Virus record (IMG/VR): IMGVR_UViG_3300042330_000854
Location: 1 to 64,000 of that record
DNA: 64,000 nt
Strand: one strand, 5' to 3'
Origin: a virus
In this document: positions 3,361 to 48,034 of the stretch, in pieces
How the letters are laid out: the number at the start of each line of letters is the position of its first letter
Position numbering within the stretch: position 1 is the stretch's first letter
Notes under the pieces: model-generated
Database searches by the model: none
What the model saw: only the letters and a program-made list of their open reading frames with translations
Told to the model about the DNA's origin: nothing
Position numbers and translations under genes: made by a program

Positions 3361-3380
3361 TTTATTTCCTATTTTTAAAG

Positions 3381-3451
3381 ACTGCTCAGTTGGAATTGAA
3401 CCAACATAACTGATTTTGCAGACCAGGGCATAACCATTCTGCCATGAGCAG
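3381..3451 (-). tRNA. tRNA-Cys(GCA)
   Basis: Cloverleaf; CTGGT-ctGCAaa-ATCAG anticodon arm; GTTCAATTC T-loop. Confidence 0.9.
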
Positions 3452-8163: not shown

Positions 8164-10124
8164 TTTAATTTATAAACTCAACTTCATAATTAAATTTTTT
8201 TAAATGCTGTTGAAAAAATTCTTCAGTATATTCAATATTTTCAGGAATATCTAAATTTGGTATTTTAAGATATTCAATAATTTTATCAAAAATATCTTCA
8301 TCAAAATAATTAATACTATCATAACAATAAGCAGAAGGTTTTAAATTTAAAATTTCTTTATCATTAAGATAAACAATAGCACCATCAGCATAACTTATTC
8401 CGCAAGTTTCACAATCATGATAATCTTCACAAAATTCTATTTTTATAATATTCATAATAACTCCTATATTAATGTTGTAATTCTAATAAAATTATTTGAG
8501 TATTATCGTTTACTTTAATAGCTTCTCTTATATTTGGATGGTTAATAAAAATACTTTCACCATTATAAAAGTAATAAAAAGATTGCCCAATATATTTTAT
8601 TTTATAATACGTATTTTGATAATAAATCCAATCATTTTCTTTAAATTTCATAATAGAAATCCTAAGAAAAAACCTATAATTAATAATACAGGAAACCATA
8701 CAAACGCAGTTAACGCATGTATGGTTAAAAATGTTCCATTATTTCTACCAAAATATAAAGTGCTTCCACCAATTAATACAGAAAATAAAATACTTACAAT
8801 CGCATTAATTGGATAAAATATAAACAACAAAAATATTAAAGCAATTGGTAAAAATAATAATTGCATATTAAAATAAATCTTTGTCTGATTTATAAATTAC
8901 TGTATTAGGCGTAATTACAAAATATTCATCTGGATTTCCTTCGATATTTAATTTAAAAACCAATTTTCCAGTTTTTAAATGTTTAGAAATAATTTCTGCC
9001 TCATCGTGAAATCCACCATAATATCGAGTATAATTTTGATAACCTTCAAAATAACCATCCATATTACATGCTAATTTTAATTCATTGTTAATTAATTTAA
9101 AATAATCTTCATTATTATACTTTTGTGCATCTTCAAATAAATCATTAAAATCAGAATTATTTTTTAATTCGTTATTTAATGATACTATATCTAATGTCAA
9201 ATCTTCTTGTTTTAAAATTTTTAAAGTAATATAAAGTCCCATAGTTTATTATCCTTTCTTATAATTGGTTTATTCAAACGATTTAATAATTTATTATTCC
9301 AGTACCAGTTTGTAATGATTTAATATCATCAACAATTGTTGGTGATGCTTCAAAAATGTTTTTACTTTTTTCGGTTCCAAAATGATATTCTAACATATCT
9401 CGTAGAATATTATAATAGCCACGATGAAGATAATAAAAATTAGAATTTTCTAACACGCACATTAATTTAATATAAGCGTCAAATAATTTTTCATCCAAAT
9501 CAAAATGTTTATTAAAAATTATTTTTAAATTTTCGATAATTTTACTAACTTCAATATTTTCTAATTGATTTTCATAAAATTTTAATTTATCACGATGTTC
9601 TTTTATTTTTTCTAAAATCTCTGTTTTAGTTAAATCGCACATTATTACTCTTTCTTTAATTGTATTAAAGTTAATATCATATTAAAATATTTTTGTAATT
9701 CCTCGATGTTCTCATTGTCACTGCCAAAGAAAACACTATATTCTAAAATACCAACCGGACCATCTAAAGGAATATCTTTTAATTTTTTACTGAGTTCTTT
9801 ATCACGAATTACATTATAACTGTATTGAAATTTTATTAATTTGCTTTCTTGATTAAATAATTCAATATCGAAATTATAATCATACGTTAAAATTTCTATG
9901 ATAAATGGCATAATCCCACCATTTAATTCTTCATTAAACAAAAACTCTTCTTTTTGTAATTGAAGAGTTTTATTTAAATAATATCTCATTGAAATTTACT
10001 GAATAAAAATTCTTTAAATTTACGCGAAAAATTACTTAGTTTTTCGCCAGCAATATAAAAACCAGCAATAACGCCAAAAACAAAACCAATTAATGTAAAC
10101 ATATTCTTTCTCCATAATGTTTAG

Positions 10125-10197
10125 AGGTTCCAGAAGAACTCGAATCTTCATTTTAACTTTCGTAGAGTTACGTCCTATCCAGTTGGACGATGGAACC
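10125..10197 (-). tRNA. tRNA-Arg(ACG)
   Basis: GGTTCCA/TGGAACC acceptor; TAACT-ctACGaa-AGTTA; TTCGAGT T-loop. Confidence 0.9.
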
Positions 10198-12075: not shown

Positions 12076-12098
12076 TTAAGGGAGAATTTCTCCCTTAA
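12076..12098. terminator. GGGAG..CTCCC hairpin terminator
   Basis: ttaagggaga-att-tctcccttaa overlapping the stop of the DUF2828 gene. Confidence 0.6.
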
Positions 12099-31197: not shown

Positions 31198-31341
31198 GCG
31201 GGCATGGGGGAACTTGGCAGACCCGACGTTCTCATTTCCAAGAAATAGGCAAGTATTATTTTAATACTTTCAGTGCAATTCTGATAGGAAAAACAAAAAA
31301 CGTTTCCAATAGGAGTGCGAGTTCAAGTCTCGCTGCCCGTA
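31198..31341 (+). tRNA. tRNA-Leu(CAA) interrupted by a 61-nt insert in the anticodon loop (about 31233-31293)
   Basis: GCGGGCA/TGCCCGT acceptor, ACGTT/AACGT anticodon stem, long variable arm, GTTCAAGTC; removing the insert restores ctCAAaa. Confidence 0.8.
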
Positions 31342-31491
31342 CAATAAATTATAAGAGCAATCTTATAATTTAGTTCTTTTAAATTGTTAAACTAAAGTAA
31401 TTTAGTACCTTAGACATAATTTAGCAACTGCTTGATTATGCATAGAACAGGTTCTAAGGTGACAATTAACTTTCTATGGTTAATTGATAAT

Positions 31492-31578
31492 GGGGAGATT
31501 TTTCTGACCCTGACTGTAAATCAGGTGGCGTTAAATATCAGAATGGATGCCGAAGAGGTTCGATTCCTCGTTTCCCCA
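31492..31578 (+). tRNA. D-armless 8/4 tRNA-Tyr(GTA)-like RNA
   Basis: CCTGA-ctGTAaa-TCAGG; GAGG-ttcgatt-CCTC; TTCTGA can pair with TCAGAA in the variable-arm loop. Confidence 0.7.
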
Positions 31579-31770: not shown

Positions 31771-31954
31771 ATTTCTTAAATTGTTACTTGACTAAGTAAA
31801 TTAAATATAGTAAGTTTTATCATCAAATAACAAGGAGAAATAAAAATGGACATTTTTGGTTTTTACATGACACTTTGGCCCTTTTTTATTGAACTTAATT
31901 CAATGGGTCAAACGTATATTGACTTTTATCGTCAATTGCATTAATTTTAAACTT

Positions 31955-32039
31955 GGCCTCTGTCCCTCTCACGGTCTTCTAAACCGTCGTCATTAAAATG
32001 GAGGATGGATGACAATGGGTTCGATGCCCTCAGAGGTCG
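31955..32039 (+). tRNA. D-armless 8/4 tRNA-Arg(TCT)-like RNA
   Basis: GGCCTCTG/CAGAGGTC; ACGGT-ctTCTaa-ACCGT; CCTCT can pair with GGAGG in the variable-arm loop. Confidence 0.7.
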
Positions 32040-32330: not shown

Positions 32331-32401
32331 GCTTCCATGTTGTAATAGTAGCAAAAATTCCTCATAAGAATTTAGATTTGGGGCAGAACCAAATGGAAGT
32401 A
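32331..32401 (+). tRNA. tRNA-Met/Ile2(CAT)
   Basis: AATTC-ctCATaa-GAATT; T-loop GGCAGAA. Confidence 0.75.
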
Positions 32402-32856
32402 CACGTTATACATAAACAAAAAAGATTTATACAAGTCTCTTTTTCATACCTCTTCTAAATCCATCTGGTATTGGATCAGTTTTTAAAATACGTATATTAA
32501 TAATTTCATCAGTAATATACCAATATTTTGAATTAGTTTCAGATATTTTTTGTTTGGTTAATAATCCAAAATTAGATTATTAAATTTAATTAGTAAAAAA
32601 GTTCTTGACAAAGAATATAAGTTGTAGTAATTTAATATATAAAAAATATACCTTATCCGGTAATAAGTTTTAAAGATAATTTTGATATTTTATAATCTTT
32701 AAAAGTAGTTACATCAATGCGGTTTTAGTTAATAGTAAAAAAAACTAACAACTGCATTCGGCAAATACATTTGTATTTCGCGGTATTAAAAAATATCAAG
32801 TTTTTTATATACCTAAAATTCTTTTGACAAAAGAATATAAGTTGTAGTAAATTAAG

Positions 32857-32927
32857 ATAAGAATTAAAACCTGAGGTCAGGCAACTTGGCAAAGTTGAAT
32901 TAGGTTCGAGTCCTCTTTAATTCTTAT
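32857..32927 (+). ncRNA. compact tRNA-like RNA with AGGT D-tetraloop (GGC anticodon-like)
   Basis: ATAAGAATTAA/TTAATTCTTAT; CCTG-aggt-CAGG; CAACT-tggcaa-AGTTG; AGG-ttcgagt-CCT. Confidence 0.6.
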
Positions 32928-32930
32928 TAT

Positions 32931-33001
32931 GCGGGATTAGCATAAAATTAATGTGCTTGGCTTCCACCCAAGATAAATCGGAGAGTTACCGATATTCCGC
33001 T
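32931..33001 (+). tRNA. tRNA-Gly(TCC)
   Basis: GCGGGAT/ATTCCGC, U73; CTTGG-ctTCCac-CCAAG; T-loop AGAGTTA. Confidence 0.85.
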
Positions 33002-33062
33002 CTTTAAAATAATAGTTGGTTTGATGATTTATCCTAATTTAAAATCATCGTTTATTTGGTGT

Positions 33063-33158
33063 GACGATTAACCACTTTGCAAAAAAGTTCATCTGCTGAA
33101 GAATAAGATAATGATCTTGGTAGTGCTTGATTAGTAGCAATTATCAAAAATAATCGTC
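33063..33158 (+). ncRNA. four-way-junction ncRNA, copy 1 (homologue at 39848)
   Basis: GACGATTA/TAATCGTC closing stem; shared ATGATCTTRGTRGYG.T.GATTAGTAGCAAT core. Confidence 0.55.
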
Positions 33159-33259
33159 CTCTGGTGGGGTGTATATTTATTAAAAATATTTATTTTTGTT
33201 GTCTTACATTGTGTTTTATGTAAAATTTGATAAATATATTTATGAAATTATCCGATTGG

Positions 33260-33627
33260 GTAAGAAAAGAAACCAATGATCAATTTTTTTAATTGGGATT
33301 TGGTAGAGGATTATTCCATGACAACTCGCAAAGTTTAAGTGCGCCGTTAATCCCATTAAAGAAATTTCTTTAATAAAGACAAGTAATAAAAATATATATT
33401 ACTTGTAACGGTGTATAGCAATATCCCTGGTTGATTAGAACCAAAATCTAATCACCATTATGGTTAGTAAATAAACCACTCGTAAGAGTTTTTCGTAAGA
33501 AAAATAAGATTATGACGAATTTTCAACTCGTTAGTAACAATAATCCTAAAAAATATTTACTGGCGGATGGTAGAGTTTACTCTACGATCTAGGTTGCTTA
33601 GAACCTTAATCTAAGCACTTTTCTTAC
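33260..33627 (+). ncRNA. large (~370 nt) structured ncRNA candidate
   Basis: Terminal helix GTAAGAAAAG/CTTTTCTTAC, internal GGATTATT/AATAATCC, many GNRA-capped hairpins; no ORF of 60 aa or more. Confidence 0.55.
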
Positions 33628-33714
33628 AGAAGATTATGAAAAATTGTAAAAAAACATATCCTCTGTAAAAAAATAGTTCTTGACAAAAAGAACTATAATT
33701 AATAATATATTTTT

Positions 33715-33800
33715 ATGCTTGGAGAGTAGAATACAGGGAAACTGGCCTTGGTGTTCCAAGGAACGCAAATCACAATTGGTTCAAATCCAATCACAAGCAT
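33715..33800 (+). ncRNA. T-arm-bearing tRNA-like RNA, copy 1 (homologue at 47739)
   Basis: TGCTTG-GAGAGTAGAATAC...ATTGG-ttcaaat-CCAAT-CACAAGCA. Confidence 0.6.
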
Positions 33801-33807
33801 AATTTAT

Positions 33808-33890
33808 GGACACAGTGATATCAGTGGTCAATATCAACGTACTTTTAATACGTCGCGTAAGCTTTCTTGGTTCAATTCCAAGTGTGTCCT
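33808..33890 (+). tRNA. tRNA-Lys(TTT) with long variable arm
   Basis: GGACACA/TGTGTCC; ACGTA-ctTTTaa-TACGT. Confidence 0.8.
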
Positions 33891-33941
33891 CTACAAAAAA
33901 TACTTGACAATAAATAAATATAATAGTAAAGTAAGTTTTAT

Positions 33942-34015
33942 TGCGGAGTAGAGAAAAAGACATCTCGCAGGCTTCATGCGCCTGAAATAGTTGGAGCGTT
34001 ACCAACCTCTCGCAT
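33942..34015 (+). tRNA. tRNA-Met(CAT)
   Basis: CAGGC-ttCATgc-GCCTG; T-loop AGCGTTA. Confidence 0.7.
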
Positions 34016-34021
34016 CTTTAA

Positions 34022-34111
34022 TGGCGCGTACTCTAATGGTAAGAGACAAGATTGTTAATCTTGCGTATTCCGATTTTCGGTATGTTGGTTCGATCCCAAC
34101 CGTGCTAGCCA
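34022..34111 (+). tRNA. tRNA-Asn(GTT) with long variable arm and encoded CCA
   Basis: CAAGA-ttGTTaa-TCTTG; GTTCGATC; ends GCCA. Confidence 0.85.
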
Positions 34112-34155
34112 ATATGTTAAAATAAAGTATATTCAATTACGATATATTTTAAATT

Positions 34156-34230
34156 ATCCTTGTGGTGTAGAAGTTAACATGTCAGTCTCCAAAACTGAAG
34201 TCCAGATTGCAAAATTCTGCAAGGATGCCA
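34156..34230 (+). tRNA. tRNA-Trp(CCA)
   Basis: TCAGT-ctCCAaa-ACTGA; ends GCCA; T-loop TGCAAAA. Confidence 0.85.
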
Positions 34231-34426
34231 TAAAAATTATTAATATAATTCAATATAGGAGATTAATATGACTGATAATACAAATGATTACAAAGATGAC
34301 ATTTCAGAAGAATATATTAATTTTTTAGAAAATAAATCATCCTATTTAGATGATGAAGAATGGGAATTAGTAGATTCAATGTAATTTAGTTATTGACATA
34401 ATTCAATAATTGAGTTATAATAATTT

Positions 34427-34782
34427 AAAGATTAGTTTCAGCAAAAATAATTATTTTTTTTTGATAAAAAACAAACACTAATCTGAAATATTTTAAAGTT
34501 TAAAGAATAGGTTCTGCAAAATTTCAAATTAGCAAAATCAGATTAATCCTCTGATACCGAGGTTTTATATTTCCTCATTAATATAAAATGTAAAAAACTA
34601 TTCTGTACTAATTTTCTTTTTAGTTGTTTAAAGAATGATTTCAGCAAAATTTAGCTTGGAAATGCAAAAAACATCATTCTGATTTATTTCCTTATATTAT
34701 ACTTTCTTATTTTATAGTTTAAAGGATGAGTTCCGCAAATTTTAAAATTTCAATTTTTGGTTTGAAAAACAAAATCATCCTG
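34427..34782 (+). ncRNA. array of four CxGCAAA stem-loop RNAs (34427-34485, 34502-34605, 34630-34681, 34721-34782)
   Basis: Each has tttAAAG-stem-TT.C.GCAAA-inner hairpin-stem-CTG with covarying stems; starts just after TTGACA-17-TATAAT (34393-34421). Confidence 0.7.
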
Positions 34783-34839
34783 ATTATCTCTTTATAGTTT
34801 AATAGTTTAAAATACTAGAGGGAACATTTTTAGTTTTAT

Positions 34840-34912
34840 TCCAGAATCTTCTAACTGATAAGAAACAAGAATTTGAGTCTTGGCAATGTAGGTTTAAATC
34901 CTACTTCTGGAT
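34840..34912 (+). tRNA. tRNA-Gln(TTG)
   Basis: TCCAGAA/TTCTGGA; CAAGA-atTTGag-TCTTG; T-loop TTTAAAT. Confidence 0.75.
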
Positions 34913-34964
34913 CACATAAAAAATAGTTGACATGTACCTAAATCCATAGTAAATTATTTTTATT

Positions 34965-35038
34965 GCCGTTTAAGCTAACTTTAGTAGAAGCGCTTGCATG
35001 AAGAGCAAGAGGACTTGGCGCGAAACCAAGAAGCGGCA
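34965..35038 (+). tRNA. tRNA-Phe(GAA)
   Basis: GCCGTTT/AAGCGGC; CTTGC-atGAAga-GCAAG; T-loop CGCGAAA. Confidence 0.8.
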
Positions 35039-35040
35039 CT

Positions 35041-35330
35041 TTAATCACAGCACAAATTAATATTTTGGGCAAATATTTATAAAATATTATATTAATTTGT
35101 TAAAACGCTCTTATTATCTAGGGCAATGTAGATGTAACAATGATGGTTAAAATCTTCTACCTGTGATTAAAACTCTTGACAAGAATGAAAATCAATGATA
35201 AATTATAATCATTAATTACTACAAAATTCAATGTTTTCGATTTTAGCTTAAATATTGAATTGTTAATAGCGTGAAGCAAAACGCAATGCAGATGTAACAA
35301 AGCAAACAAAATCTTCTGCTAGTAATTGAT
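35041..35330 (+). ncRNA. two homologous multi-stem ncRNAs (35041-35170, 35211-35330)
   Basis: Covarying terminal helices and shared TGTTAA.A.GC..GCAATGYAGATGTAACAA...AAATCTTCTRC. Confidence 0.6.
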
Positions 35331-35450
35331 AATTCAAATCAGATAGTGATTTGAAAGTTTATGGTGATAGTTTTCACGCGATAAACAAATATGCGGGCAT
35401 GGCGAAATAGCAGCCGCGACAAGTAAAAAATATATTTAAAATTATATTTT

Positions 35451-35592
35451 GCTCACGTATCCCAATCGGAAGAGGAAAACGACTCAATCCTGAGAAAAAG
35501 ACAAGTATTATTTAATACTTTCGGTGCAATTCCGATAAGGAAAAAAACAGAAAATCGTTTAGTTGTCGGTTCGAATCCGACCGTGAGTACCA
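35451..35592 (+). tRNA. tRNA (Phe GAA, or short-arm Leu CAA) interrupted by a 65-nt insert (about 35485-35549)
   Basis: GCTCACG/CGTGAGT-ACCA, AACGA/TCGTT anticodon stem, GTTCGAATC; insert homologous to that in the 31198 tRNA. Confidence 0.8.
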
Positions 35593-35604
35593 TTAGAGGA
35601 AAAA

Positions 35605-36087
35605 ATGACAAATAATAATGAAAAAACAATAGTTTCATCAAAAGTTTATAAAGATAAAAAATCTAAAAGATTAATACAACATATAAGATATTCAGATGGA
35701 ACAAGAAAAACACGTTCTTATCCAAGAACAATTATGGAAGAATATTTAGGAAGACCATTATTAGACGACGAAACAGTAGATCATATTGATGGTAATGTAG
35801 AAAATAATGATATTAGTAATTTACAATTATTGTCACGAGAAGAAAATGCCCGTAAAGGCGCTTTGGGAAATAAACATACATTAGGTCGTAAACAATCTGA
35901 AGAACATAAACGAAATGGTGCTAAAAACGGCCAAGCAAAATTAACAAATGAACAAGTAATTTATTATAGAAAATCTTATGAAGATAAATCTCTTACTAAA
36001 AATCAAATAATAGAATTAACAAACATGAGTAGGCCCGCTATTGAAAATATTTTAAATTACAAATCATATGTAAATACTAAAAACTAA
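35605..36087 (+). CDS. free-standing HNH homing endonuclease
   Basis: RTIMEEYLGRPLLDDETVDHIDGNVENNDISNLQLLSREEN; NUMOD3-like KQSEEHKR; AKLTNEQV. Confidence 0.85.
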   Translation: MTNNNEKTIVSSKVYKDKKSKRLIQHIRYSDGTRKTRSYPRTIMEEYLGRPLLDDETVDHIDGNVENNDISNLQLLSREENARKGALGNKHTLGRKQSEEHKRNGAKNGQAKLTNEQVIYYRKSYEDKSLTKNQIIELTNMSRPAIENILNYKSYVNTKN

Positions 36088-36223
36088 TTTAACCTAGGGC
36101 CAATGAAAGATTAATAATCTAAGGTTAAACATGCATTATGATAAATAATGTTGATCTGTGATCACGTAAGATGGTTTGGTGCGTAATGTAAATTACAAAG
36201 ATAATCTTTTCGGAGATTATTTT

Positions 36224-36295
36224 CGGGGTATAGCTCAGAAGTAGAGTGTTCGCTTTGGAAGCGAAAGGCCGAAATTGCAAAATTTTCTACCCCGA
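36224..36295 (+). tRNA. tRNA-Pro(TGG)
   Basis: CGGGGTA/TACCCCG; TTCGC-ttTGGaa-GCGAA; T-loop TGCAAAA. Confidence 0.85.
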
Positions 36296-36406
36296 CTTTA
36301 GCAGTATCATGATTTCATGATAAAGAAATTAACCAACTTTTAGCAACGTCCTTTGGTCCCATCTGGTAAGTGCTAATCTCTTTAAGAGTCTGCTAATAAT
36401 TTTTTA

Positions 36407-36471
36407 TTCCTACGAGCAAACATAGTGACTGCAATCGGCTGTTAACCGATTATTACGTGGAACGTAGGAAG
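36407..36471 (+). pseudogene. T-armless tRNA-Asn(GTT)
   Basis: TCCTACG/CGTAGGA acceptor, D arm and ATCGG-ctGTTaa-CCGAT intact; only 12 nt where the variable loop and T arm should be. Confidence 0.6.
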
Positions 36472-37178
36472 CTTTTATAAAGATTTAAAATGTATAATTA
36501 AAGGAATAATTTAATGCAACTAGAAAAATGTTTACCGATTAAACAAAGAGATTGGAAAAATTGGCGGGCAAAAAATGAAAAACTTAATGCTGATATTGTT
36601 TTAAAAATTGGTATGAAAGTTCGTGATTGTTTTGGAACTGTTGGGATTATTCAACGTATTGAGGAAGGTTACGATATAGAAGAACATGGCACTATAGAAG
36701 TTTTTCGTTTAGATACAACTGACTATGGCCTTAATAATTGTGAACATTTTTGTTTTTATGATTGGCAAAAACATTTAAGAATTTTAGATATGAATGAATA
36801 ATATTTGTTATTCTAACTTAAATACTCAATTAATAAAACTTCTAGGAAAATTAAATGCTCGTATATTATCATAATACTAATCATGCTAGTTTATCTAGCC
36901 TAGTGCTATTAAGTATTCATAAAATAATACAAAAATATAGAGATAACCTTGATCATACGTATATTATTCTTAACAATAATACTTTTGAATTTATAACAAT
37001 AAATTGCCCAAGTGTATTTGGACTTACAAATTTATTAAAAGATCGAATATTTGTTCAAATAAAAATAAATTCTAATATAGAAGACAATGTTATAGAAATA
37101 CATTATGGAGAACATGTATTATTTGACACAATAACTATTCAATAATTTTATAGTTGTCAATTTTATAAAGGTTTTATT

Positions 37179-37544
37179 ATGTATTATTATAAATTAAACG
37201 ATGAAATAAAAAGTTGTAAAAAATATTCTGAAATACCATTTGAACAATTAATTGTTGAAAATGAATCAACTCATTGGAAAGTAACTGCGGATGATGGTAC
37301 TTTTTATTATAATAAAAATAAAATTCATAGAAAAAATTTACCAGCAAGAATAGATGATTTATTTGTTTGTTATTATGAAAATAACCAACCACATAAAGAA
37401 GATGGTCCTGCATTAATTTTTAATAACGGTTATTATTCTTTTTGGTTATATGGAAAAAACTATCTTAATGTAAAAGATTGGTTGACCTATCATCCAAATC
37501 AAGATAAAGTATTTGAAGTTGAAATGTTATTGCGTTATAGTTAA
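37179..37544 (+). CDS. divergent HRxxGPA-family paralogue
   Basis: IHRKNLPA, PHKEDGPA, HPNQDKVFEVEMLLRYS. Confidence 0.75.
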   Translation: MYYYKLNDEIKSCKKYSEIPFEQLIVENESTHWKVTADDGTFYYNKNKIHRKNLPARIDDLFVCYYENNQPHKEDGPALIFNNGYYSFWLYGKNYLNVKDWLTYHPNQDKVFEVEMLLRYS

Positions 37545-38102
37545 AATTCATAGAAAGGAATTAAAAATGTCATCAGATGAAATTAAAACAGTATTATTAA
37601 GTTATGCTCGTGCATTTAAAGATCATACTGAAAAGCAAATTAAACGAATTTCTAAGAAGAAAGTTGATCAAAATGTAATTCGTATTTTTAAATCAACTAT
37701 TACTGATGAAAAATGGCTAGTTATTTCATATGATGGCGACGATGAAGATTATTCTATGTTTCCTTTTGCTGAAACCGCAAACGAGTGGACAGCATATGTT
37801 CAACATTCACAAGACAATATTGATTCAGACGAAGAAGCTGTAGTAATTATGTTTGCACCTAATTGGTGGAAAGTAAAAGAAAGATATTTTTATGATCAAC
37901 ATTTAGAATTTGTTTTTGGTGATATTTTAAAAGCATTTATTCAAGATGAATATGAAGAAATACAAGAAAATACTTTTATATCCAATATTGGGAATTTAGA
38001 AGAAACTATTGCTGATTTAAAAAATCGCGGATTTAATGTTGAAATGTTTGATGAAAATACATTGCCTTAAAAATTTTCAAAATAAAAAAAGGATAATTAA
38101 TA

Positions 38103-38327
38103 ATGAATATTAAAGAAATGGTATCAGATAATAAAAAAGTTACATTTGAATATTTTCGTGATAATGAATTATGGTATAAAACAGAAAACGATTTCTTATT
38201 TCCTGTTCCAACTGATGATGTTGGTAATGCTGTTTTTATGAAAGAAGATAAAGCTTTATTGTTTATGCGATGGATTCGTAAACATATTCAAAAATTAGAA
38301 GATGCAAGAAAAAATCAAAATTTATGA
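38103..38327 (+). CDS. conserved phage hypothetical protein
   Basis: LWYKTENDFLFPVP.DD.GNA.F..EDKALLFMRWIRK. Confidence 0.75.
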   Translation: MNIKEMVSDNKKVTFEYFRDNELWYKTENDFLFPVPTDDVGNAVFMKEDKALLFMRWIRKHIQKLEDARKNQNL

Positions 38328-39001
38328 TTAATTTATCATTAAATTCTTTTTCTAATATTGATATAGATCAATTATTAAAATTAATTAAAAATTATGCAGT
38401 TGATAATTTAGAGTTATCAACTGCACTTTCTTTAAAACATATTGATGGGTTTGAAAGATTTGCTTCTGTTGATTTTATTAATTTGTTTAATAAAAAATTA
38501 AAAGAAAATAATATAAAAACCTCAATACACGTATTTGGTGAATTAGCTAAACAATTAGGAAACGACAGAATAAATAATATTCCAAAAATCAATTGGGAGC
38601 TATTAGAACGAGTACAATTGAATAGATTTTCAGTTGATATTAATATTGCTTTAGAAAATCTTGAAAATTTAGGCTTTAATGGGCGGTTGATTTTACCAGC
38701 CAATAAAAAAGATTTGGTTATATCTGAATTGCCAATTGACGATAGAATTGATTGGTTATATGATTGTTCTCATGGTAAAGGAATTGAAATAAACTCATAT
38801 CCAATTGATCCTTTGATTAATCGACAAGGTAAAATTGGATTTGCTGGTGGAATTAATAAAAATAATATTTTAAAAATAAATAATAAAATTTTAACATTAG
38901 GTTTTAAAAATTATTATTTGGATATTGAAAGTGGCATACGTGAAAATGATCGAATATCATTTGAAAAAATAAAAAATATATTAGAAATAATAAACAAATA
39001 A
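38324..39001 (+). CDS. TrpF/PRAI-like TIM-barrel protein
   Basis: RVQLN, LYDCSHGKG, GFAGGINKNNI, LDIESGIR. Confidence 0.7.
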   Translation: MINLSLNSFSNIDIDQLLKLIKNYAVDNLELSTALSLKHIDGFERFASVDFINLFNKKLKENNIKTSIHVFGELAKQLGNDRINNIPKINWELLERVQLNRFSVDINIALENLENLGFNGRLILPANKKDLVISELPIDDRIDWLYDCSHGKGIEINSYPIDPLINRQGKIGFAGGINKNNILKINNKILTLGFKNYYLDIESGIRENDRISFEKIKNILEIINK

Positions 39002-39501
39002 TTGTTGACATAAATTTTTATTATGTTATCCTTTTTTAAACAAAGGAGAAAAAATATGCTAGAAAATGTTTATTTAGAATTTAATGATAATTTTAGCGGT
39101 TATCATGAACCTGATTATAAGAAAAATAATGAATTATTAACTAAATTAGAAAATTATAAGTTAATTAATAATTTTAATTTATTTTCTAATTTAGTTAATT
39201 TACTTCCAAATTGTATTATATTTGTTTGGTCTGAAACACCTTCTGATGATTTTGATTTATTTGATGTACAATTTGACGAAGATGAATGGGAAACTTATGA
39301 AGATTATTTATTGGCGTGTAGCAACAATAAATATGCTTCTATTTTGTTTTATGTTAACCCAAATTGTTTTATGACATTTTGTGGCAGTAATGCTGATATT
39401 GCTTTCTCATTACTATTAAAACAATTGAAAAAAATTAATGAAATTAGATTTATTGACTAATTAATTGTTGACATGATTAAGAAATTTTGGTATAAATAAT
39501 T

Positions 39502-39606
39502 TAAGTTAATTAGAAGTGGGCTTCCGTAGCGACGGCTATAGATTTTTGTTCGATTCAAAATTAAATCATGGATGATTAACGTGGTTCGATTCCACAATTA
39601 ACTTAA
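39502..39606 (+). ncRNA. tRNA-like RNA with two T-loop hairpins
   Basis: TAAGTTAATT/AATTAACTTA closing stem; TTTG-ttcgatt-CAAA and GTGG-ttcgatt-CCAC; follows a TTGACA..TATAAA promoter. Confidence 0.55.
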
Positions 39607-39701
39607 TTTGGTCCTGTAGTTTACTCTTATCAGGACTACTTTGTTAAATAAAATGTTATGATTTGTCACATATTTTTAATATGCAAAAAGACAAATCCTT
39701 T

Positions 39702-39773
39702 GGGCCTAAAGTGTTGTTGGGGGCATAACAGATTTGCATTCTGTAGGGCGGGTTTCGAATACCCGTGGGTCCA
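39702..39773 (+). tRNA. tRNA-Ala(TGC)
   Basis: G3:U70; ACAGA-ttTGCat-TCTGT; TTCGAAT. Confidence 0.85.
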
Positions 39774-39847
39774 CTATCGTAATATGGCGAGGGTTACAAT
39801 AAAATCGTTGACAAACGTTATCATTTATAGTAAAAAAGAATAAGGAC

Positions 39848-39988
39848 TGCCCATCGTTCTCCTAGCAATAGGTTTGGTAAATACCGAATAAAATTATGAT
39901 CTTAGTGGCGTTAGATTAGTAGCAATAATTAAAATAGAAGAGAGGCATGTATGGTGAGCTATTGGAAGAGATAGACTAGGTGATGGCA
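39848..39988 (+). ncRNA. four-way-junction ncRNA, copy 2
   Basis: Homologous core to 33063; CCTA-gcaa-TAGG hairpin; follows a TTGACA promoter. Confidence 0.55.
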
Positions 39989-40041
39989 TTACCAAATAAT
40001 TATGCTAAAAGTTTTGATAGTTTCTTTAAAAAACTATCTAT

Positions 40042-40114
40042 GGTAGTTGTGGCAGAAAAGTTATGCGACAGATTGTGAGTCTGTAATAAGCGAGAGCGTT
40101 ACTCGTCAACTACC
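40042..40114 (+). tRNA. tRNA-His(GTG)
   Basis: G-1:C73; ACAGA-ttGTGag-TCTGT; T-loop AGCGTTA. Confidence 0.85.
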
Positions 40115-40865
40115 CGAAATTTATTGGGGATTTATCAATGCTAATTTGGTCTAATGAAAGCCGTGAACTTTTTAAAAATGTTGTAATTGAAAATAATATT
40201 GGTACTTTATCTTTACCAAGCGAAAACCCATTCAATATTGAATGGTCTAACCAATGTAAAATATTAGATAATAATCAAAGTACACCAGCTAATGAATATA
40301 AACAATATAATTTACAATTAAATAATGGTAAAATAGCTACTGGTGTTTTTATAAAACAAATTGAATTTTTTGGTGATAAAGATAAGAAAATTTTTACATT
40401 TGTAATTGATACTATTTCTTAATAAAAATATATTATAGAAAGAAAAACAATGTTTCCATTATTTTTATTACTATTAAATTTTATATTGTTTAGTGGAATA
40501 ATTTATATGATGATTAAAATAGGTTTTTGGTTGTCTGTTTTTTGTATTTTACTTAGTTCTATAGTATGGATACCAGTTATTGTACTTCTTTACATGCATC
40601 GCAAATAATCTAAATGTTAAGTGATATTAAATTTTCACATCAATTAGAACAAAGTTTACATTTTATTGTTGAAAATTTAGAAGATAAATCTTCAAATAAT
40701 ATTATGATAAATTTTAATATTTTCTTTAAATTGTTAATTAATTGTAAAGATGTAAAAAATGTGTATTTGAATTTTATTGATAATATTTTTGTTATAAATT
40801 ATACATATAATAAACAAAATTTTTGTATTAACTTTTTCTATAAAACAACTTAAAAAGGAAATAAA

Positions 40866-41600
40866 ATGAGTTTAGCTTTATTTGATACAGAGGGGTTGCG
40901 TTTTCGACGCCAAACTGAATTACGATTACGTGAACAAATTAAAAATGAATTAGTAGAAAATATTCAACAAATTTTATTAGATATGAATCAAATGTGGCGT
41001 TTTGAAGAAGTTGAAACGCCATTAATTATGCCTAAAGAATTAATGAATGCAAGTTATGATCTTGATGATATTTTTGTTTTACAAAATAAAATAGCCAATA
41101 AAGATTATGCTTTACGTGCAGAAACAACATTAGGTTCTTATTTAATGGCTGTTGAATTACTTAAAACAACTTCAATTCGTGCTCCTTTGTGTGTTTATAC
41201 ACATGGGCCAAGTTTTCGAGTTGAAAATTCAGATGGGGCAACTGCTGCTAAATTACGGTTTAATCAATTTTATCAATTGGAATTTCAATTAATTTATGGT
41301 GCTGATACCAAAGCGCCGATTATTGAAACAATGATTGAAAAATTACCTACGGTAGTAAATAAAATTCTTAATAAATCTGTTAGAACAATTGAAAGTGATC
41401 GTTTGCCTTCTTATTCGATAGAAACAATTGATATTGAAGTTGAATGGTATTCTGAAACAGCAAAAAAGATGGAATTTAAAGAAATTGCCAGTATGAGTTT
41501 ACGCAAAGATTTTCCTTTAATTCCAGGCCATAAACCGTATCGTGTTTTTGAAATTGCTTTTGGAACTGATCGATTATTGGCTATGAAAAATGGCATTTGA
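40866..41600 (+). CDS. stand-alone class II aminoacyl-tRNA synthetase catalytic domain (GlyRS-like)
   Basis: EVETPLIMP (motif 1), LRAETT, SFRVE...LRFNQFYQLEFQ (motif 2), RLPSYS.ETIDIE, EIAFGTDRL (motif 3); no anticodon-binding domain. Confidence 0.8.
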   Translation: MSLALFDTEGLRFRRQTELRLREQIKNELVENIQQILLDMNQMWRFEEVETPLIMPKELMNASYDLDDIFVLQNKIANKDYALRAETTLGSYLMAVELLKTTSIRAPLCVYTHGPSFRVENSDGATAAKLRFNQFYQLEFQLIYGADTKAPIIETMIEKLPTVVNKILNKSVRTIESDRLPSYSIETIDIEVEWYSETAKKMEFKEIASMSLRKDFPLIPGHKPYRVFEIAFGTDRLLAMKNGI

Positions 41601-41936
41601 TTTACATGAATTGAATCAATTAAAATTTGATTTAAAAAATCTAAATGTAAATATTAAAATATGTTCTCCTGATAATAAATTGGGAGAACATTTTATTGAT
41701 TTTTATATTGATGATAAAAGAATTTTAACTATTGTTTATAAATTAAAATTTGGTTTCGGATTTTTTAGTGAAGATGCAATAATGTTTGAAGGCCCAAGTG
41801 AAATTTTAAATTATGAAAATGCATTAATAAAAATTCGAGAATTTTTAGCTGATAAAAATTTGTTAAATAAATCTACATAGTTTCAGAGTTAGAAAAAGGG
41901 AATCGCTCTTCCCAAAAACATTTTCAGAATACAGGA

Positions 41937-42312
41937 CTGAGGAAATGAGTTAGAAACAAACGAACGGTTACGATTAACCGGAATAGAAAAAATTCTATTC
42001 ACTAATCCGTCTATCGAGTAGAATTGGTAGGCGAAAAGATTCTAGCAATGTTTGTTCATTAACAACTAGAAGTTATCATAATTTTAATACATGAGAATTA
42101 TGATAATCCCGTTTTGAGAAATTTAAAATCAATTTCTGAAGATTTATCACGAGTAGGTACAGCAAAACCGCCTGCGCTTTATTTTATAATGTAGTGAGTC
42201 ATGTATGAAATTTACGCCGATGCTTTTATACGTAAGGTGCAAAATTTGATCTTCCCTATGTCATTATTATTTTATTAGTTTTGGCATGGGGAAGAATGAA
42301 ATATGTCCTCAG
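41937..42312 (+). ncRNA. large (~375 nt) structured ncRNA candidate
   Basis: CTGAGGA/TCCTCAG closing helix with at least 8 internal hairpins; ORF-free and GC-enriched. Confidence 0.5.
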
Positions 42313-42472
42313 CAATTGCCGTATGGGCTTTAGAAATAAAGAAAAAAATCAAGTAAAAAACAAAAAAAATAAAATTTTTCTTCTAATAAGATTTATAGCA
42401 GAAATTCTTTTTTTATTGAAAATTTTTTTACATGATATTATATTAACTTTTTAATGAAAGAAAAAATAAAAA

Positions 42473-42676
42473 ATGACAAAACCTTATACTTGTGAAATCA
42501 CTCAACAAACTTTTGAAAATGTTGAAGCCGCTAATTTTTATTTTACTCAACAAAATAAAATGGTTTCTATTCTTCCAGTTGGTTCAATAGTAACTATGGA
42601 ATTTAGACCTAATCGAGTTAGAATTTATCATGATTTAGAAGATAAAAATATCATCATAGATATTACTTTTGGTTAA
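42473..42676 (+). CDS. peptidase inhibitor I78/potato-inhibitor-I-like protein
   Basis: ILPVGSIVTMEFRPNRVRIYHD...IIDITFG. Confidence 0.8.
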   Translation: MTKPYTCEITQQTFENVEAANFYFTQQNKMVSILPVGSIVTMEFRPNRVRIYHDLEDKNIIIDITFG

Positions 42677-42731
42677 AATTAATTGATAAAAACATGTTGA
42701 CAAGCTAATAAAAACATAGTAAGTTATATAC

Positions 42732-42831
42732 ATAAGCATGGGATATGAAAAGAAGGTTCGAGTCCTTCGCCGCAACGTTGACAACAACGGGGTGGATGTT
42801 GTTCGCCGGAAAGAAGCTTTTCTGTGCTTAT
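42732..42831 (+). ncRNA. circularly permuted tRNA-like RNA (YrlA-like)
   Basis: TAAGCATGG/CTGTGCTTA closing stem, then T arm GAAGG-ttcgagt-CCTTC, closed hairpin CGTTG-acaa-CAACG and D-like TTC-gccggaaa-GAA. Confidence 0.55.
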
Positions 42832-42833
42832 AT

Positions 42834-42906
42834 CACGCATTCGAATAATCAGTTAATTCAACAGACTTTCAATCTGTAAACGAGAGGGCAGAACTCTCAT
42901 GCGTGA
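42834..42906 (+). tRNA. tRNA-Glu(TTC)
   Basis: CACGCAT/ATGCGTG; ACAGA-ctTTCaa-TCTGT; T-loop GGCAGAA. Confidence 0.85.
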
Positions 42907-43355
42907 CTTTTTAAAATATAGGAATAAAATATGGAAAATGTATTAATTCTTCTGTTATTACCAATTATTGTAATATTAATTGGGTTAATTTTATTTGTTT
43001 ATATTTACTTACCATTATCTATTCCATTTTTACTACCAAGTTTAACTGTAATTATAATTTCTATTCTAATTTTTATTGTTATACATTATATTGGAAAAAT
43101 AATTTAAAAATTAAATAAAATGCTTTAATTAATGTAGTTGTGATAGATAAATAATGTACAAATTTATGCCGATTTAATAAGAGAAAATAATATGAATAAT
43201 AATTTTAATTTAGAACATGTTGGAAGTTCTTTTGAAGATTGGCTTGAATACGAAGGATTTGCTGAAGAAGTTTATGCAAGTGCTTTAAAAGAATTACAAT
43301 TTGAACAAATTGAAAAAACATTAAAGAAATTACAAAAATAATTAGAAAGTTTTTT

Positions 43356-44329: not shown

Positions 44330-44401
44330 CGCGGGATAGTGAAGTGGTTATCACACAGGATTCATGCTCCTGTATCCTAGGTTCAAATCCTAGTTCCGCT
44401 A
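44330..44401 (+). tRNA. tRNA-Met(CAT), initiator-like
   Basis: C1:U72 mismatch; CAGGA-ttCATgc-TCCTG; GTTCAAATC. Confidence 0.85.
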
Positions 44402-44501
44402 CAATTAAATTTTATAATACCATAAGTCTGTTTAAGTGATTATGACGATTAACAAATAGTTAATTCATCTATGTACAAAATCCTTTTCAGCAGGTTATTT
44501 T

Positions 44502-46675: not shown

Positions 46676-46762
46676 GGATAGTTAGTAGAGTGGTCGATTG
46701 CGCTACATTGGAAATGTAGAGAACCTGTAAAGGTTCCAGGGGTTCAAATCCTCTACTATCCG
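46676..46762 (+). tRNA. tRNA-Ser(GGA)
   Basis: CTACA-ttGGAaa-TGTAG; long variable arm; G73. Confidence 0.9.
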
Positions 46763-46811
46763 CAAAATTATTGTTGACATGTAAATAAAATAATAGTATA
46801 GTAAAATTATT

Positions 46812-47640
46812 GGTGTGTTGGCCGAGAGTATTATAGTTATTAAATTAATAGAGAGATTATAAATGTTTATATGTGAGTTTGGTTGTGGCAAGATTGCTAT
46901 TCATCAGTTTAAATCTAGTCATAAATGGTGTTGTTCAACAAACGTGAATACTTGTGTCGGTCATAGAGAAAAAATATCTAAATCAAAAAAGGGTATAAAT
47001 CCTTTTCTTGGAAGAGAACACCCAAGAGGCATGAAAGGGAAAATTCATATATTCAAGGGAAAAACTTATGAAGAAATTTTTGGAGATAGGGCTTCTATTA
47101 TTAAATCTAAAATTTCTAATAGTTTAAAAGGAAATACTAATTGGTCAAATGTCGATGAAATAATTAAAATTTTACATGCAGAACGTGCTCGTGAACGTAT
47201 ATTGAAACGATATGAAGCTGGGTGGCAACCTAAAGCTGGACGCTGCACCAAATATACATATGAGAGTAAGATAGCAGGAAAAATATTAGTAGATGGTACT
47301 TGGGAATTAGAAGTAGCAAAATGGTTAGATAGCAAATGTTTAAATTGGAAACGAAACACGAAAAGATTTCCTTATACTAATATAGAAGAAAAAATAAGTC
47401 ATTATACACCTGATTTTTGGATTGAAGAATGGGATTCATATTTAGAAATTAAGGGATACGAAACAGATTTAGATCGTTGTAAATGGGCGCAATTTAAAGA
47501 AAATTTAATAGTATGGTATAAAAAAGATATAGACAAAATTATTAAAGATAATAAACTTTTATCTAGCTACATATGCATATAGTTTTAGACGTTGAAGGTA
47601 GTAACCCTGTCTTCCAAAAGTTCAAATCTTTTACACACCG
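46812..47640 (+). pseudogene. tRNA split in the D-loop by an endonuclease gene (5' part about 46812-46829, 3' part about 47584-47640)
   Basis: GGTGTGT...ACACACC acceptor pairs across the insertion; AAAAG-ttcaaat-CTTTT T arm; anticodon arm imperfect (GTA or AGT). Confidence 0.65.
46863..47582 (+). CDS. PD-(D/E)XK-type homing endonuclease with Cys-rich/NUMOD3-like N-terminus
   Basis: CEFGCG...WCCS..C; HREKISKSKKG; GTWELEVAKWLD; YTPDFWIEEWDSYLEIKGY. Confidence 0.8.
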   Translation: MFICEFGCGKIAIHQFKSSHKWCCSTNVNTCVGHREKISKSKKGINPFLGREHPRGMKGKIHIFKGKTYEEIFGDRASIIKSKISNSLKGNTNWSNVDEIIKILHAERARERILKRYEAGWQPKAGRCTKYTYESKIAGKILVDGTWELEVAKWLDSKCLNWKRNTKRFPYTNIEEKISHYTPDFWIEEWDSYLEIKGYETDLDRCKWAQFKENLIVWYKKDIDKIIKDNKLLSSYICI

Positions 47641-47958: not shown

Positions 47959-48030
47959 TCCGCTATAACTCAATGAGAGAGTAGCAGTTTTGTAAACTGA
48001 AAGCTGGGAGTTCAAATCTCTCTAGCGGCG
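47959..48030 (+). tRNA. tRNA-Thr(TGT)
   Basis: CAGT-ttTGTaa-ACTG; GTTCAAATC. Confidence 0.8.
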
Positions 48031-48034
48031 CTTT

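What the first reader, a model, noticed from the sequence alone, without database searches (positions are those of the whole stretch)
32331..42906. Systematically recoded tRNA elbow with D-loop/T-loop compensation
Seen: at least eight tRNAs lack T54-Psi55-C56 and also lack D-loop GG. Met 32331 and Glu 42834 (GGCAGAA), Met 33942 and His 40042 (AGCGTTA), Trp 34156 and Pro 36224 (TGCAAAA) and Phe 34965 (CGCGAAA) all have G55-C56 with D-loop AG. Gly 32931 has G55-A56 with D-loop AT. Gln 34840 has U55-U56 with D-loop GA. The 19-56 Watson-Crick pair is kept and G18-Psi55 becomes A18-G55. Inference: selection to keep the L-shape while escaping elbow-reading host factors such as TrmA/TruB, tRNA-targeting toxins or T-loop nucleases.
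Basis: partly seen in the sequence, partly recalled or inferred. Interest (0 to 1): 0.75.

Follow-up and report, generated by a model that had tools for sequence, protein, structure and literature searches.

The report
Phage tRNAs with a rewired elbow
Eight of the 19 cloverleaf tRNA genes in this lake-water giant-phage fragment replace the near-universal G18-U55 corner contact with a matched A18-G55, so they look like working tRNAs that lack the classic T-psi-C site and that gene finders partly miss.

Summary
The window is the first 64 kb of a 108-kb uncultured myophage record (25% GC, lake water). It carries 19 cloverleaf tRNA genes. Eight have A18-G19 in the D loop with G55 in the T loop. 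Seven of these have C56; in Gly the pair is U19-A56. Gln keeps G18/U55 but has A19-U56. Nine are canonical.

In 580 non-identical phage tRNAs that I collected without regard to the elbow, A18 and G55 occur only together (7-nt D loops: 127 G18/U55, 6 A18/G55, no mixed forms; p = 1.4e-10). Two homologous families show the double switch on unchanged stems: tRNA-Phe here versus Pseudomonas phages, and tRNA-Met in two Aeromonas phages.

The rewired loops follow a published rule for non-tRNA T-loops: G at position 2 with an intercalating adenosine. That gives the design a structural precedent.

Compensation is supported. Escape from elbow-reading host factors is plausible, because the Cash nuclease needs U54 and U55, but it is untested here. 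It is also weakened by the nine canonical tRNAs in the same array.

This scan has noted the same A18/G55 design in at least seven other phage windows. I found no paper describing it.

The parts
32331..32402 (+). tRNA-Met(CAU), rewired. D loop AATAGTA (A18 G19), T loop GGCAGAA (G54 G55 C56 A57 G58).
   Evidence: Cloverleaf with 21/21 pairs. Found by ARAGORN only in -mt mode. Missed by Rfam. Promoter-like TTGACA-17-TAAATT lies 157 nt upstream.
32931..33002 (+). tRNA-Gly(UCC), rewired. D loop AAAATTA (A18 U19), T loop AGAGTTA (A54 G55 A56 G57 U58).
   Evidence: Rfam 42.8 bits. Has G1-C72, C2-G71, G3-C70 and U73, as in E. coli Gly identity. Promoter-like site 78 nt upstream.
33942..34016 (+). tRNA(CAU), Met or Ile2, rewired. 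D loop AAAAGACA, T loop AGCGTTA. The acceptor stem has a one-base bulge.
   Evidence: Promoter-like TTGACA-17-TAAAGT ends 10 nt before the gene. Possibly impaired.
34156..34230 (+). tRNA-Trp(CCA), rewired. D loop AGAAGTTA, T loop TGCAAAA, with a U53.U61 mismatch. CCA is encoded.
   Evidence: Rfam 46.9 bits. Has A1-U72 and G73.
34840..34913 (+). tRNA-Gln(UUG). Keeps G18/U55, but the 19-56 pair is A-U (D loop AACTGATA, T loop TTTAAAT).
   Evidence: Rfam 45.9 bits.
34965..35039 (+). tRNA-Phe(GAA), rewired. D loop ACTTTAGTAG, T loop CGCGAAA (C54 G55 C56 G57 A58).
   Evidence: Rfam 40.4 bits. Homologous to the GG/U55 tRNA-Phe of Pseudomonas phages. Promoter-like site ends 10 nt upstream.
36224..36296 (+). 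tRNA-Pro(UGG), rewired. D loop AGAAGTA, T loop TGCAAAA, with a U53.U61 mismatch.
   Evidence: Rfam 55.0 bits, with A aligned to G18 and G aligned to U55. Has C1-G72 and A73.
40042..40115 (+). tRNA-His(GUG), rewired. D loop AAAAGTT(A), T loop AGCGTTA. G-1 is encoded opposite C73.
42834..42907 (+). tRNA-Glu(UUC), rewired. D loop AATCAGTTA, T loop GGCAGAA.
   Evidence: Rfam 47.3 bits. The nearest sampled homologue has D loop AATCGGTCA and T loop TTCGAAT. Promoter-like site 109 nt upstream.
33808..33891 (+). tRNA-Lys(UUU), canonical elbow (GG / TTCAATT). Internal comparator.
34022..34111 (+). tRNA-Asn(GUU), canonical elbow, with a 20-nt variable arm. Internal comparator.
39702..39774 (+). tRNA-Ala(UGC), canonical elbow.
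44330..44402 (+). tRNA-Met(CAU), canonical elbow, with a C1xU72 mismatch (initiator-like).
46676..46763 (+). tRNA-Ser(GGA), canonical elbow.
47959..48031 (+). tRNA-Thr(UGU). T loop is canonical, but the D loop AATGAGA gives G18 A19 opposite C56, the one 19-56 mismatch in the window.
10124..10197 (-). tRNA-Arg(ACG), canonical elbow.
3380..3451 (-). tRNA-Cys(GCA), canonical elbow.

Best explanation
These are most likely working elongator tRNAs whose elbow uses a second, internally consistent design.

**What is shown**
- The tRNA-specific T-loop (U54-U55-C56-R57-A58, with G18 inserted between 57 and 58 and touching U55) is replaced by N54-G55-C56-R57-N58 with A18.
- Base 19 still pairs with base 56.

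**What is inferred about the fold**
- This is the rule that non-tRNA T-loops follow: G at loop position 2, contacted on its sugar edge by an intercalating adenosine. The flat outer face and the L shape should therefore be preserved.

**What is inferred about function**
- The genes are transcribed from phage sigma-70-like promoters.
- They are trimmed and given CCA by host enzymes, since most lack an encoded CCA.
- They are charged by host synthetases, since class-specific identity marks are intact.
- They read the phage's dominant A-ending codons.

**Consequence**
- It follows directly from the sequence that psi55 cannot form, and that T54 cannot form in six of the eight.
- By inference, enzymes that need the U54-U55 step, such as the cA4-activated Cash nuclease, should not act on them.
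- I take evasion of, or independence from, such T-loop readers as the likeliest benefit. That step is not shown.
For: 1. **Intact genes.**
   - Stems are perfect or nearly so, and U33, purine 37 and R57 are kept in all nine. G53-C61 is kept in all but Trp and Pro, and U8 in all but Phe.
   - Idiosyncratic identity marks are kept: His G-1:C73, Pro C1-G72/A73, Trp A1-U72/G73, Gly G1-C72, C2-G71, G3-C70 and U73.
2. **No redundancy.** Rewired and canonical tRNAs cover different amino acids; only the CAU anticodon occurs in both groups.
3. **Strict coupling.**
   - Window: 8 A18/G55, 11 G18/U55, 0 mixed (p = 1.3e-5).
   - Among 580 non-identical phage tRNAs, those with 7-nt D loops (unambiguous numbering): 127 G18/U55, 6 A18/G55, 1 G18/C55, 0 mixed (p = 1.4e-10).
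   - 19:56 in the same subset: G:C 127, A:U 4, U:A 1, mismatches 2.
4. **Double switch on a constant scaffold.**
   - tRNA-Phe: the window gene (AG / CGCGAAA) versus PE09, L088 and L089 (GG / CTCGATA) and L133 (GG / ATCGTTA).
   - tRNA-Met: Aeromonas phage LAh_6 (TGCAATA) versus phage 1233 (TTCGATT). Every stem base but one (D-stem position 22) is identical, and the other differences lie in the D, variable and T loops.
5. **Structural precedent.** FMN and cobalamin riboswitch T-loops are YGNRA, and the intercalating base is A in 99.96% of cases. It makes two hydrogen bonds to the sugar edge of the position-2 G. A GGAAG-type rRNA T-loop also exists (bioRxiv 10.1101/2022.12.26.521914). The window's UGCAA, CGCGA and GGCAG loops fall in these classes.
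6. **Not mutational bias.** U55 to G55 runs against the 25% GC composition.
7. **Expression signals and codon match.**
   - TTGACA-17-TAnnnT sites lie upstream of Met, Gly, Met(33942), Phe and Glu.
   - CAA is 96% of Gln codons, GAA 95% of Glu and CCA 56% of Pro.
8. **A nuclease that needs these bases.** Cash cuts between U54 and U55, and single U54 or U55 mutations abolish cutting (PMC13462974).
9. **Context.** The same phage record encodes a Csx16-family protein, a family tied to type III CRISPR signalling.
Against: - There is no expression, processing or charging evidence of any kind.
- Nine tRNAs in the array keep U54-U55. A broad T-loop nuclease would still stall translation, so evasion cannot be complete here.
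- In a random IMG/VR sample, G55 tRNAs usually appear as 1-3 genes inside canonical arrays. That pattern fits a near-neutral design as well as an adaptive one.
- Trp and Pro have a U53.U61 mismatch, and Pro folds in silico to a GCAA-tetraloop hairpin.
- Met 33942 has a bulged acceptor stem.
- AGCGU (A54:U58) and AGAGU loops are outside the published YGNRA class.
- The host is unknown, and so is whether it has Cash or any other T-loop nuclease.
- No three-dimensional RNA model could be made with the tools available.
Confidence: 0.55

Rival explanations
1. These are working tRNAs, but the rewired elbow is a selectively near-neutral alternative. It arises by compensated change and spreads among phages with tRNA genes and homing endonucleases, and has no role in evading host factors.
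For: - Arrays are mosaics. The window has 8 of 19, and in an unbiased sample only 8 of 120 IMG/VR contigs had 1-3 G55 tRNAs among canonical ones.
- Phage tRNAs also show other elbow variants with U55 kept: A54:U58, A54:A58, G54:G58, C55 and A19:U56.
- HNH and NUMOD endonuclease genes sit inside the array.
- Relatives at about 40% TerL identity have fully canonical arrays.
Against: - The fraction here (42%) is about twenty times the background in the IMG/VR sample (10 of 493 tRNAs, 2%).
- The LAh_6 versus 1233 pair shows about ten changes confined to three loops, with the stems identical apart from one D-stem base. That looks like directed replacement rather than drift.
- Earlier scan notes report phages in which nearly all tRNAs are rewired. 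I did not test these.
Confidence: 0.3
2. These are tRNA-shaped RNAs that are not used in translation. They could be decoys for tRNA-binding host factors, or partners of the phage's DUF2828/DUF7788 RNA-binding protein, acting like Y RNAs.
For: - The phage encodes a phrog_850 'RNA-binding protein' (E = 1e-161).
- It also encodes several clearly aberrant tRNA-like RNAs.
- T-loop-like TGCAATT hairpins occur in the inserts of two tRNA-Leu genes.
Against: - Each RNA has a full anticodon arm with a different sense anticodon.
- Synthetase identity marks are kept.
- Apart from the CAU anticodon, there is no overlap with the canonical set.
- The anticodons match the dominant phage codons.
Confidence: 0.08
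3. These are decaying tRNA pseudogenes in an AT-rich genome.
For: - Met 33942 has a bulged acceptor stem.
- Trp and Pro have a 53:61 mismatch.
- Three of the nine are not reported by Rfam.
Against: - Decay would break stems and would leave 18/55 and 19/56 uncorrelated. Instead the stems are intact and both pairs covary perfectly.
- The same loop types recur in unrelated phages.
Confidence: 0.05

Closest known systems
Canonical bacterial and phage elongator tRNA (Rfam RF00005), including the tRNA arrays of large phages
   Same: - Cloverleaf with 7/4/5/5-bp stems, U33 and a 7-nt T loop with R57; U8, A14 and G53-C61 are kept in most.
- A 19-56 Watson-Crick pair.
- Array organisation with homing endonucleases.
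   Different: - G18 and U55 are replaced together by A18 and G55.
- Base 54 is free (A, U, G or C).
- Base 58 is A, U or G.
- Base 60 is A in all eight window G55 tRNAs (10 of 16 in the wider sample), instead of a pyrimidine.
- There is no T54 or psi55 target.
YGNRA T-loop with an intercalating adenosine, in FMN and cobalamin riboswitches (env8, PDB 4FRG; bioRxiv 10.1101/2022.12.26.521914)
   Same: - G at loop position 2, and a purine at position 4.
- An adenosine donated from another loop.
- U-A or C-A closing pair (window UGCAA and CGCGA).
- A GGAAG-type rRNA loop resembles the window's GGCAG.
   Different: - Here the motif sits in a tRNA, and the donor is D-loop base 18.
- Position 3 makes a required Watson-Crick pair with base 19.
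- A54:U58 loops (AGCGU, AGAGU) are outside that consensus.
- The geometry is inferred, not solved.
Phage tRNAs that escape anticodon nucleases through anticodon-loop changes (Azam et al. 2024, cited in PMC13462974; otherwise from my own knowledge, paper not read here)
   Same: Phage-borne tRNAs that differ from host tRNAs at the very bases a defence nuclease reads.
   Different: In those cases the change is in the anticodon loop and resistance was shown experimentally. Here the change is in the elbow and resistance is only inferred.
Metazoan mitochondrial tRNAs and the eukaryotic initiator tRNA (A54:A58)
   Same: Natural tRNAs that depart from G18G19 / T-psi-C yet still function (PMC7912444, PMC4810234).
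   Different: Mitochondrial tRNAs lose or shrink the elbow and co-evolved with their own ribosome and RNase P. These phage tRNAs keep full-size loops and must work with an ordinary bacterial machinery.

Membership tests
tRNA (Rfam RF00005) | Cloverleaf with acceptor, D, anticodon and T arms of standard size | tested here: met
   Eight of the nine parse with no more than 1 mismatch in 21 pairs. Met 33942 needs a one-base acceptor bulge.
tRNA (Rfam RF00005) | Score above the curated gathering threshold (29 bits) | tested here: inconclusive
   Pro 55.0, Glu 47.3, Trp 46.9, Gln 45.9, Gly 42.8 and Phe 40.4 bits pass. Met 32331, Met 33942 and His are not reported even at E <= 10. ARAGORN calls His.
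tRNA (Rfam RF00005) | Conserved G18-G19 and U54-U55-C56 | tested here: not met
   This is the finding itself. It lowers the score but does not decide whether the genes function.
tRNA (Rfam RF00005) | Aminoacylation and use on the ribosome | not testable with these tools
   No RNA run holds the stretch, and read laying could not be run.
Generic YGNRA-type T-loop with intercalating adenosine | G at loop position 2 and a purine at position 4 | tested here: met
   All eight G55 tRNAs have G55 and R57. The same holds for all 16 sampled type-I G55 tRNAs.
Generic YGNRA-type T-loop with intercalating adenosine | [quoted passage not shown] | tested here: inconclusive
   Met in Trp and Pro (U:A) and Phe (C:A). 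Not met in Met and Glu (G:G, which is rRNA GGAAG-like) or in Met 33942, His and Gly (A:U).
Generic YGNRA-type T-loop with intercalating adenosine | An adenosine inserted between positions 4 and 5 that contacts the position-2 G | not testable with these tools
   A is always present at the D-loop position that G18 occupies in homologues. No RNA three-dimensional tool was available.
Substrates of U54/U55-dependent T-loop enzymes (TruB, TrmA, Cash nuclease) | U54 and U55 present | tested here: not met
   U55 is absent in eight tRNAs and U54 in six. Cash needs both (PMC13462974). Actual resistance was not tested.

The most novel reading that the evidence does not exclude
A18-G55 is a widespread second design of the tRNA elbow. 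It borrows the generic T-loop rule (G at position 2 plus an intercalating A). Phages maintain it because it makes their tRNAs invisible to host enzymes and defence nucleases that read the universal U54-U55 step. One such nuclease is the Schlafen-type Cash enzyme, which is triggered by type III CRISPR; this phage also carries a Csx16-family gene.
Probability: 0.3. Interest if true: 0.85.

Novelty: new variant of a known kind. Interest (0 to 1): 0.68.

Why it matters
G18, U55 (psi) and T54 are textbook near-universal tRNA features.
- A natural, recurrent set of apparently functional tRNAs that swaps G18/U55 for A18/G55 would show that the elbow has at least two workable solutions.
- The second solution is the one used by riboswitch and rRNA T-loops.
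- It would give a ready-made test of how much RNase P, the CCA-adding enzyme, EF-Tu and the ribosome depend on base identity at the elbow rather than on its shape.
- It could reveal a counter-defence aimed at T-loop nucleases.

There is also a practical point. Standard finders miss many of these genes. ARAGORN found one of the nine here. GenBank phages carry unannotated examples, and some are annotated as hypothetical proteins. Phage tRNA repertoires are therefore undercounted.

Tried and rejected
I have no strain-level variation and no read evidence.
- **The look-up of sequencing runs** listed no RNA holder. DNA holders are lake-water metagenomes.
- **Searches for close relatives** found none.
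  - TerL exact-peptide scan: nothing.
  - TerL profile scan: only relatives at about 40% identity.
  - Megablast of the array against GenBank phages: no match.
  - The Glu 19-mer: 0 hits in viral contigs, and only unrelated canonical tRNA-Glu genes in metagenome contigs.
- **MAFFT alignment** of divergent tRNAs was not structural. I did not build a covariance model or use the count of structure pairs, and used my own cloverleaf parser instead.
- **GNRA-tetraloop reading of the G55 loops** is rejected as a general explanation. GCAG and GCGU are not GNRA, although Trp and Pro could fold that way.
- **Genome-wide scan for further NGCR hairpins** found nothing beyond the tRNAs.
- **Relaxed cloverleaf scan** of 30.5-49.5 kb found no further tRNAs.
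- **PDB sequence searches** of the DUF2828 protein and the class II synthetase-like ORF gave nothing useful.
- **Pfam scans** of 20 further large ORFs found no RNA ligase, kinase-phosphatase or tRNA nuclease.
- **Literature searches** for A18 + G55 + tRNA + T-loop and related terms returned no description of this design.

Full report
**What the window is.** It is the first 64 kb of a 108,076-bp IMG/VR virus record that CheckV rates 33% complete. GC content is about 25%, and the standard code 11 leaves normal open frames. Genes include a T4-type large terminase, a DnaB-like helicase, a primase, a tail sheath and two amidoligases. Terminase relatives at 35-48% identity sit on contigs of 200-500 kb, so this is a fragment of a very large myophage. 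Its DNA is held by many lake-water metagenome runs.

**The tRNA inventory.** ARAGORN at default settings reports 9 tRNAs and Rfam reports 12. A cloverleaf scan that scores only the four stems and ignores loop sequence finds high-scoring hits only at real tRNAs. A relaxed scan adds none. The window holds 19 cloverleaf tRNA genes: 17 on the plus strand between 31.2 and 48.0 kb (two of them tRNA-Leu genes with 61-65-nt inserts) and 2 on the minus strand. It also holds four D-armless tRNA-like RNAs.
- Eight tRNAs have G55: Met 32331, Gly 32931, CAU 33942, Trp 34156, Phe 34965, Pro 36224, His 40042 and Glu 42834.
- Gln 34840 keeps G18/U55 but has A19 with U56.
- Thr 47959 has G18-A19 opposite C56, the only 19-56 mismatch.
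- Nine are canonical.

Infernal's own alignment puts A at G18 and G at U55.

**Do bases 18 and 55 covary?**
- Within the window the split is 8 A/G, 11 G/U and none mixed (p = 1.3e-5).
- For an outside sample I fetched 120 IMG/VR contigs using a 15-mer from a tRNA-Glu anticodon arm, which says nothing about the elbow. I added arrays from two terminase relatives and from several GenBank phages.
- This gave 580 non-identical tRNAs. Among the 134 with a 7-nt D loop, where numbering is unambiguous, the counts are 127 G18/U55, 6 A18/G55, 1 G18/C55 and none mixed (p = 1.4e-10).
- In the same subset, 19:56 is G:C 127, A:U 4, U:A 1, with two mismatches.
- Ten G55 tRNAs occurred in 8 of the 120 contigs. 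Each has an AG in the D loop and C56.
- The background frequency is about 2%, against 42% in this window.

**Two natural experiments.**
- The window's tRNA-Phe is 77-80% identical to an unannotated tRNA-Phe in Pseudomonas Otagovirus phages. It shares that gene's D stem, variable loop and T stem. Those genes have GG and CTCGATA, a Pakpunavirus-like contig has GG and ATCGTTA, and the window gene has AG and CGCGAAA.
- Aeromonas phage LAh_6 has a tRNA-Met with T loop TGCAATA, and Aeromonas phage 1233 has its homologue with TTCGATT. Every stem base but one (D-stem position 22) is identical. The other differences lie in the D loop (GG becomes AG at the same columns), the variable loop and the T loop.
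- The window's tRNA-Glu D loop AATCAGTTA matches AATCGGTCA in its nearest canonical homologue.

**Why the design should fold.** A large study of T-loops in FMN and cobalamin riboswitches finds the consensus YGNRA. The base that intercalates between loop positions 4 and 5 is adenosine in 99.96% of sequences, and it makes two hydrogen bonds to the sugar edge of the position-2 G. C-A closing pairs work almost as well as U-A, a GGAAG rRNA loop exists, and tRNA is the outlier with U at position 2 (bioRxiv 10.1101/2022.12.26.521914). The window's UGCAA, CGCGA and GGCAG loops, each with A18, fit these classes. AGCGU and AGAGU do not. The G55 class also differs from the U55 class in three ways: base 54 is free, base 60 is usually A, and base 48 is never U. 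The three-dimensional reading is an inference.

**Are they functional?** The stems are intact, and several specific identity marks are kept: His G-1:C73, Pro C1-G72/A73, Trp A1-U72/G73, and Gly G1-C72, C2-G71, G3-C70 and U73. Rewired and canonical genes serve different amino acids; only the CAU anticodon occurs in both groups. Promoter-like TTGACA-17-TAnnnT sites precede five of the rewired genes. The anticodons match dominant phage codons. The U-to-G change runs against the genome's AT bias. Weak points remain: the bulged acceptor stem of 33942, the U53.U61 mismatch in Trp and Pro, and the complete lack of RNA data.

**Why it might be selected.** Without U55, and in six tRNAs without U54, TruB and TrmA have no target. 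The CRISPR-associated Schlafen nuclease Cash is activated by cA4, cuts between U54 and U55, and is blocked by single mutations at either base. Its authors leave open whether phage tRNAs are targeted (PMC13462974). The phage record encodes a Csx16-family protein at 68,690-68,995 (PF09652, 96.5 bits), which hints at type III CRISPR pressure. Against a simple escape story, nine tRNAs here remain canonical, and mosaic arrays are the norm in the wider sample. I therefore hold the structural claim at moderate to high confidence and the escape motive at roughly one in three.

**Novelty.** Searches of the paper library found no description of A18/G55 tRNAs. Earlier notes from this scan report the same design in at least seven other phage windows and in bacterial spare-tRNA arrays. 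I treated those notes as leads. I confirmed the recurrence independently in IMG/VR and GenBank phages, but I did not test the bacterial claim.

Noticed in passing
L094:4690-4995 (-), which is record bases 68,690-68,995, beyond the window: A 101-aa Csx16 / Cas_VVA1548 family protein (PF09652 96.5 bits; TIGR02620 78.5 bits), with no cas genes seen nearby. It is a candidate interference with type III CRISPR signalling.
   Followed up: partly
window 31198-31342 and 35451-35592 (+): Two tRNA-Leu(CAA) genes with canonical elbows carry 61-65-nt inserts after the anticodon. Each insert holds a T-arm-like hairpin with a G55-type loop (TCAG-TGCAATT-CTGA and TCGG-TGCAATT-CCGA).
   Followed up: partly
window 31492-31578, 31954-32039, 32856-32928 and 33715-33800 (+): Four tRNA-like RNAs with long acceptor-like stems, canonical T loops and no normal D arm. 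Two of them lie directly upstream of tRNA-Gly and tRNA-Lys.
   Followed up: partly
window 12095-13477 (-): A DUF2828 + DUF7788 protein (phrog_850 'RNA-binding protein', E = 1e-161). It has no sequence match in the PDB. It may belong to a Ro60/Y-RNA-like system, as another first-reader note proposes.
   Followed up: partly
window 40866-41600 (+): A stand-alone 244-aa fragment resembling a class II aminoacyl-tRNA synthetase catalytic core (weak Gly, Ser and His ligase matches, all far below cut-offs). It sits between tRNA-His and tRNA-Glu.
   Followed up: partly
window 34022-34111 and 33808-33891 (+): tRNA-Asn with a 20-nt variable arm and tRNA-Lys with a 12-nt variable region. Both features are unusual for these amino acids.
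   Followed up: no
L087:4002-4074 (Pseudomonas phage PE09); L092:7280-7355 (Aeromonas phage LAh_6, also LAh_8, LAh_9, 4_4572): Intact tRNA genes with odd T loops are unannotated in GenBank phage records, or overlap a 'hypothetical protein' annotation.
   Followed up: yes
L084:17235, L111:4278, L127:397, L131:588(-), L144:6676, L158:2956(-): A third rare elbow variant in phage tRNAs: C55 (T loops TCCGATT, TCCAAAT and similar) together with a normal GG D loop.
   Followed up: no
window 35605-36087 and 46863-47582 (+): HNH and NUMOD3-type homing endonuclease genes lie inside the tRNA array, as in the T4 and T5 tRNA regions.
   Followed up: no
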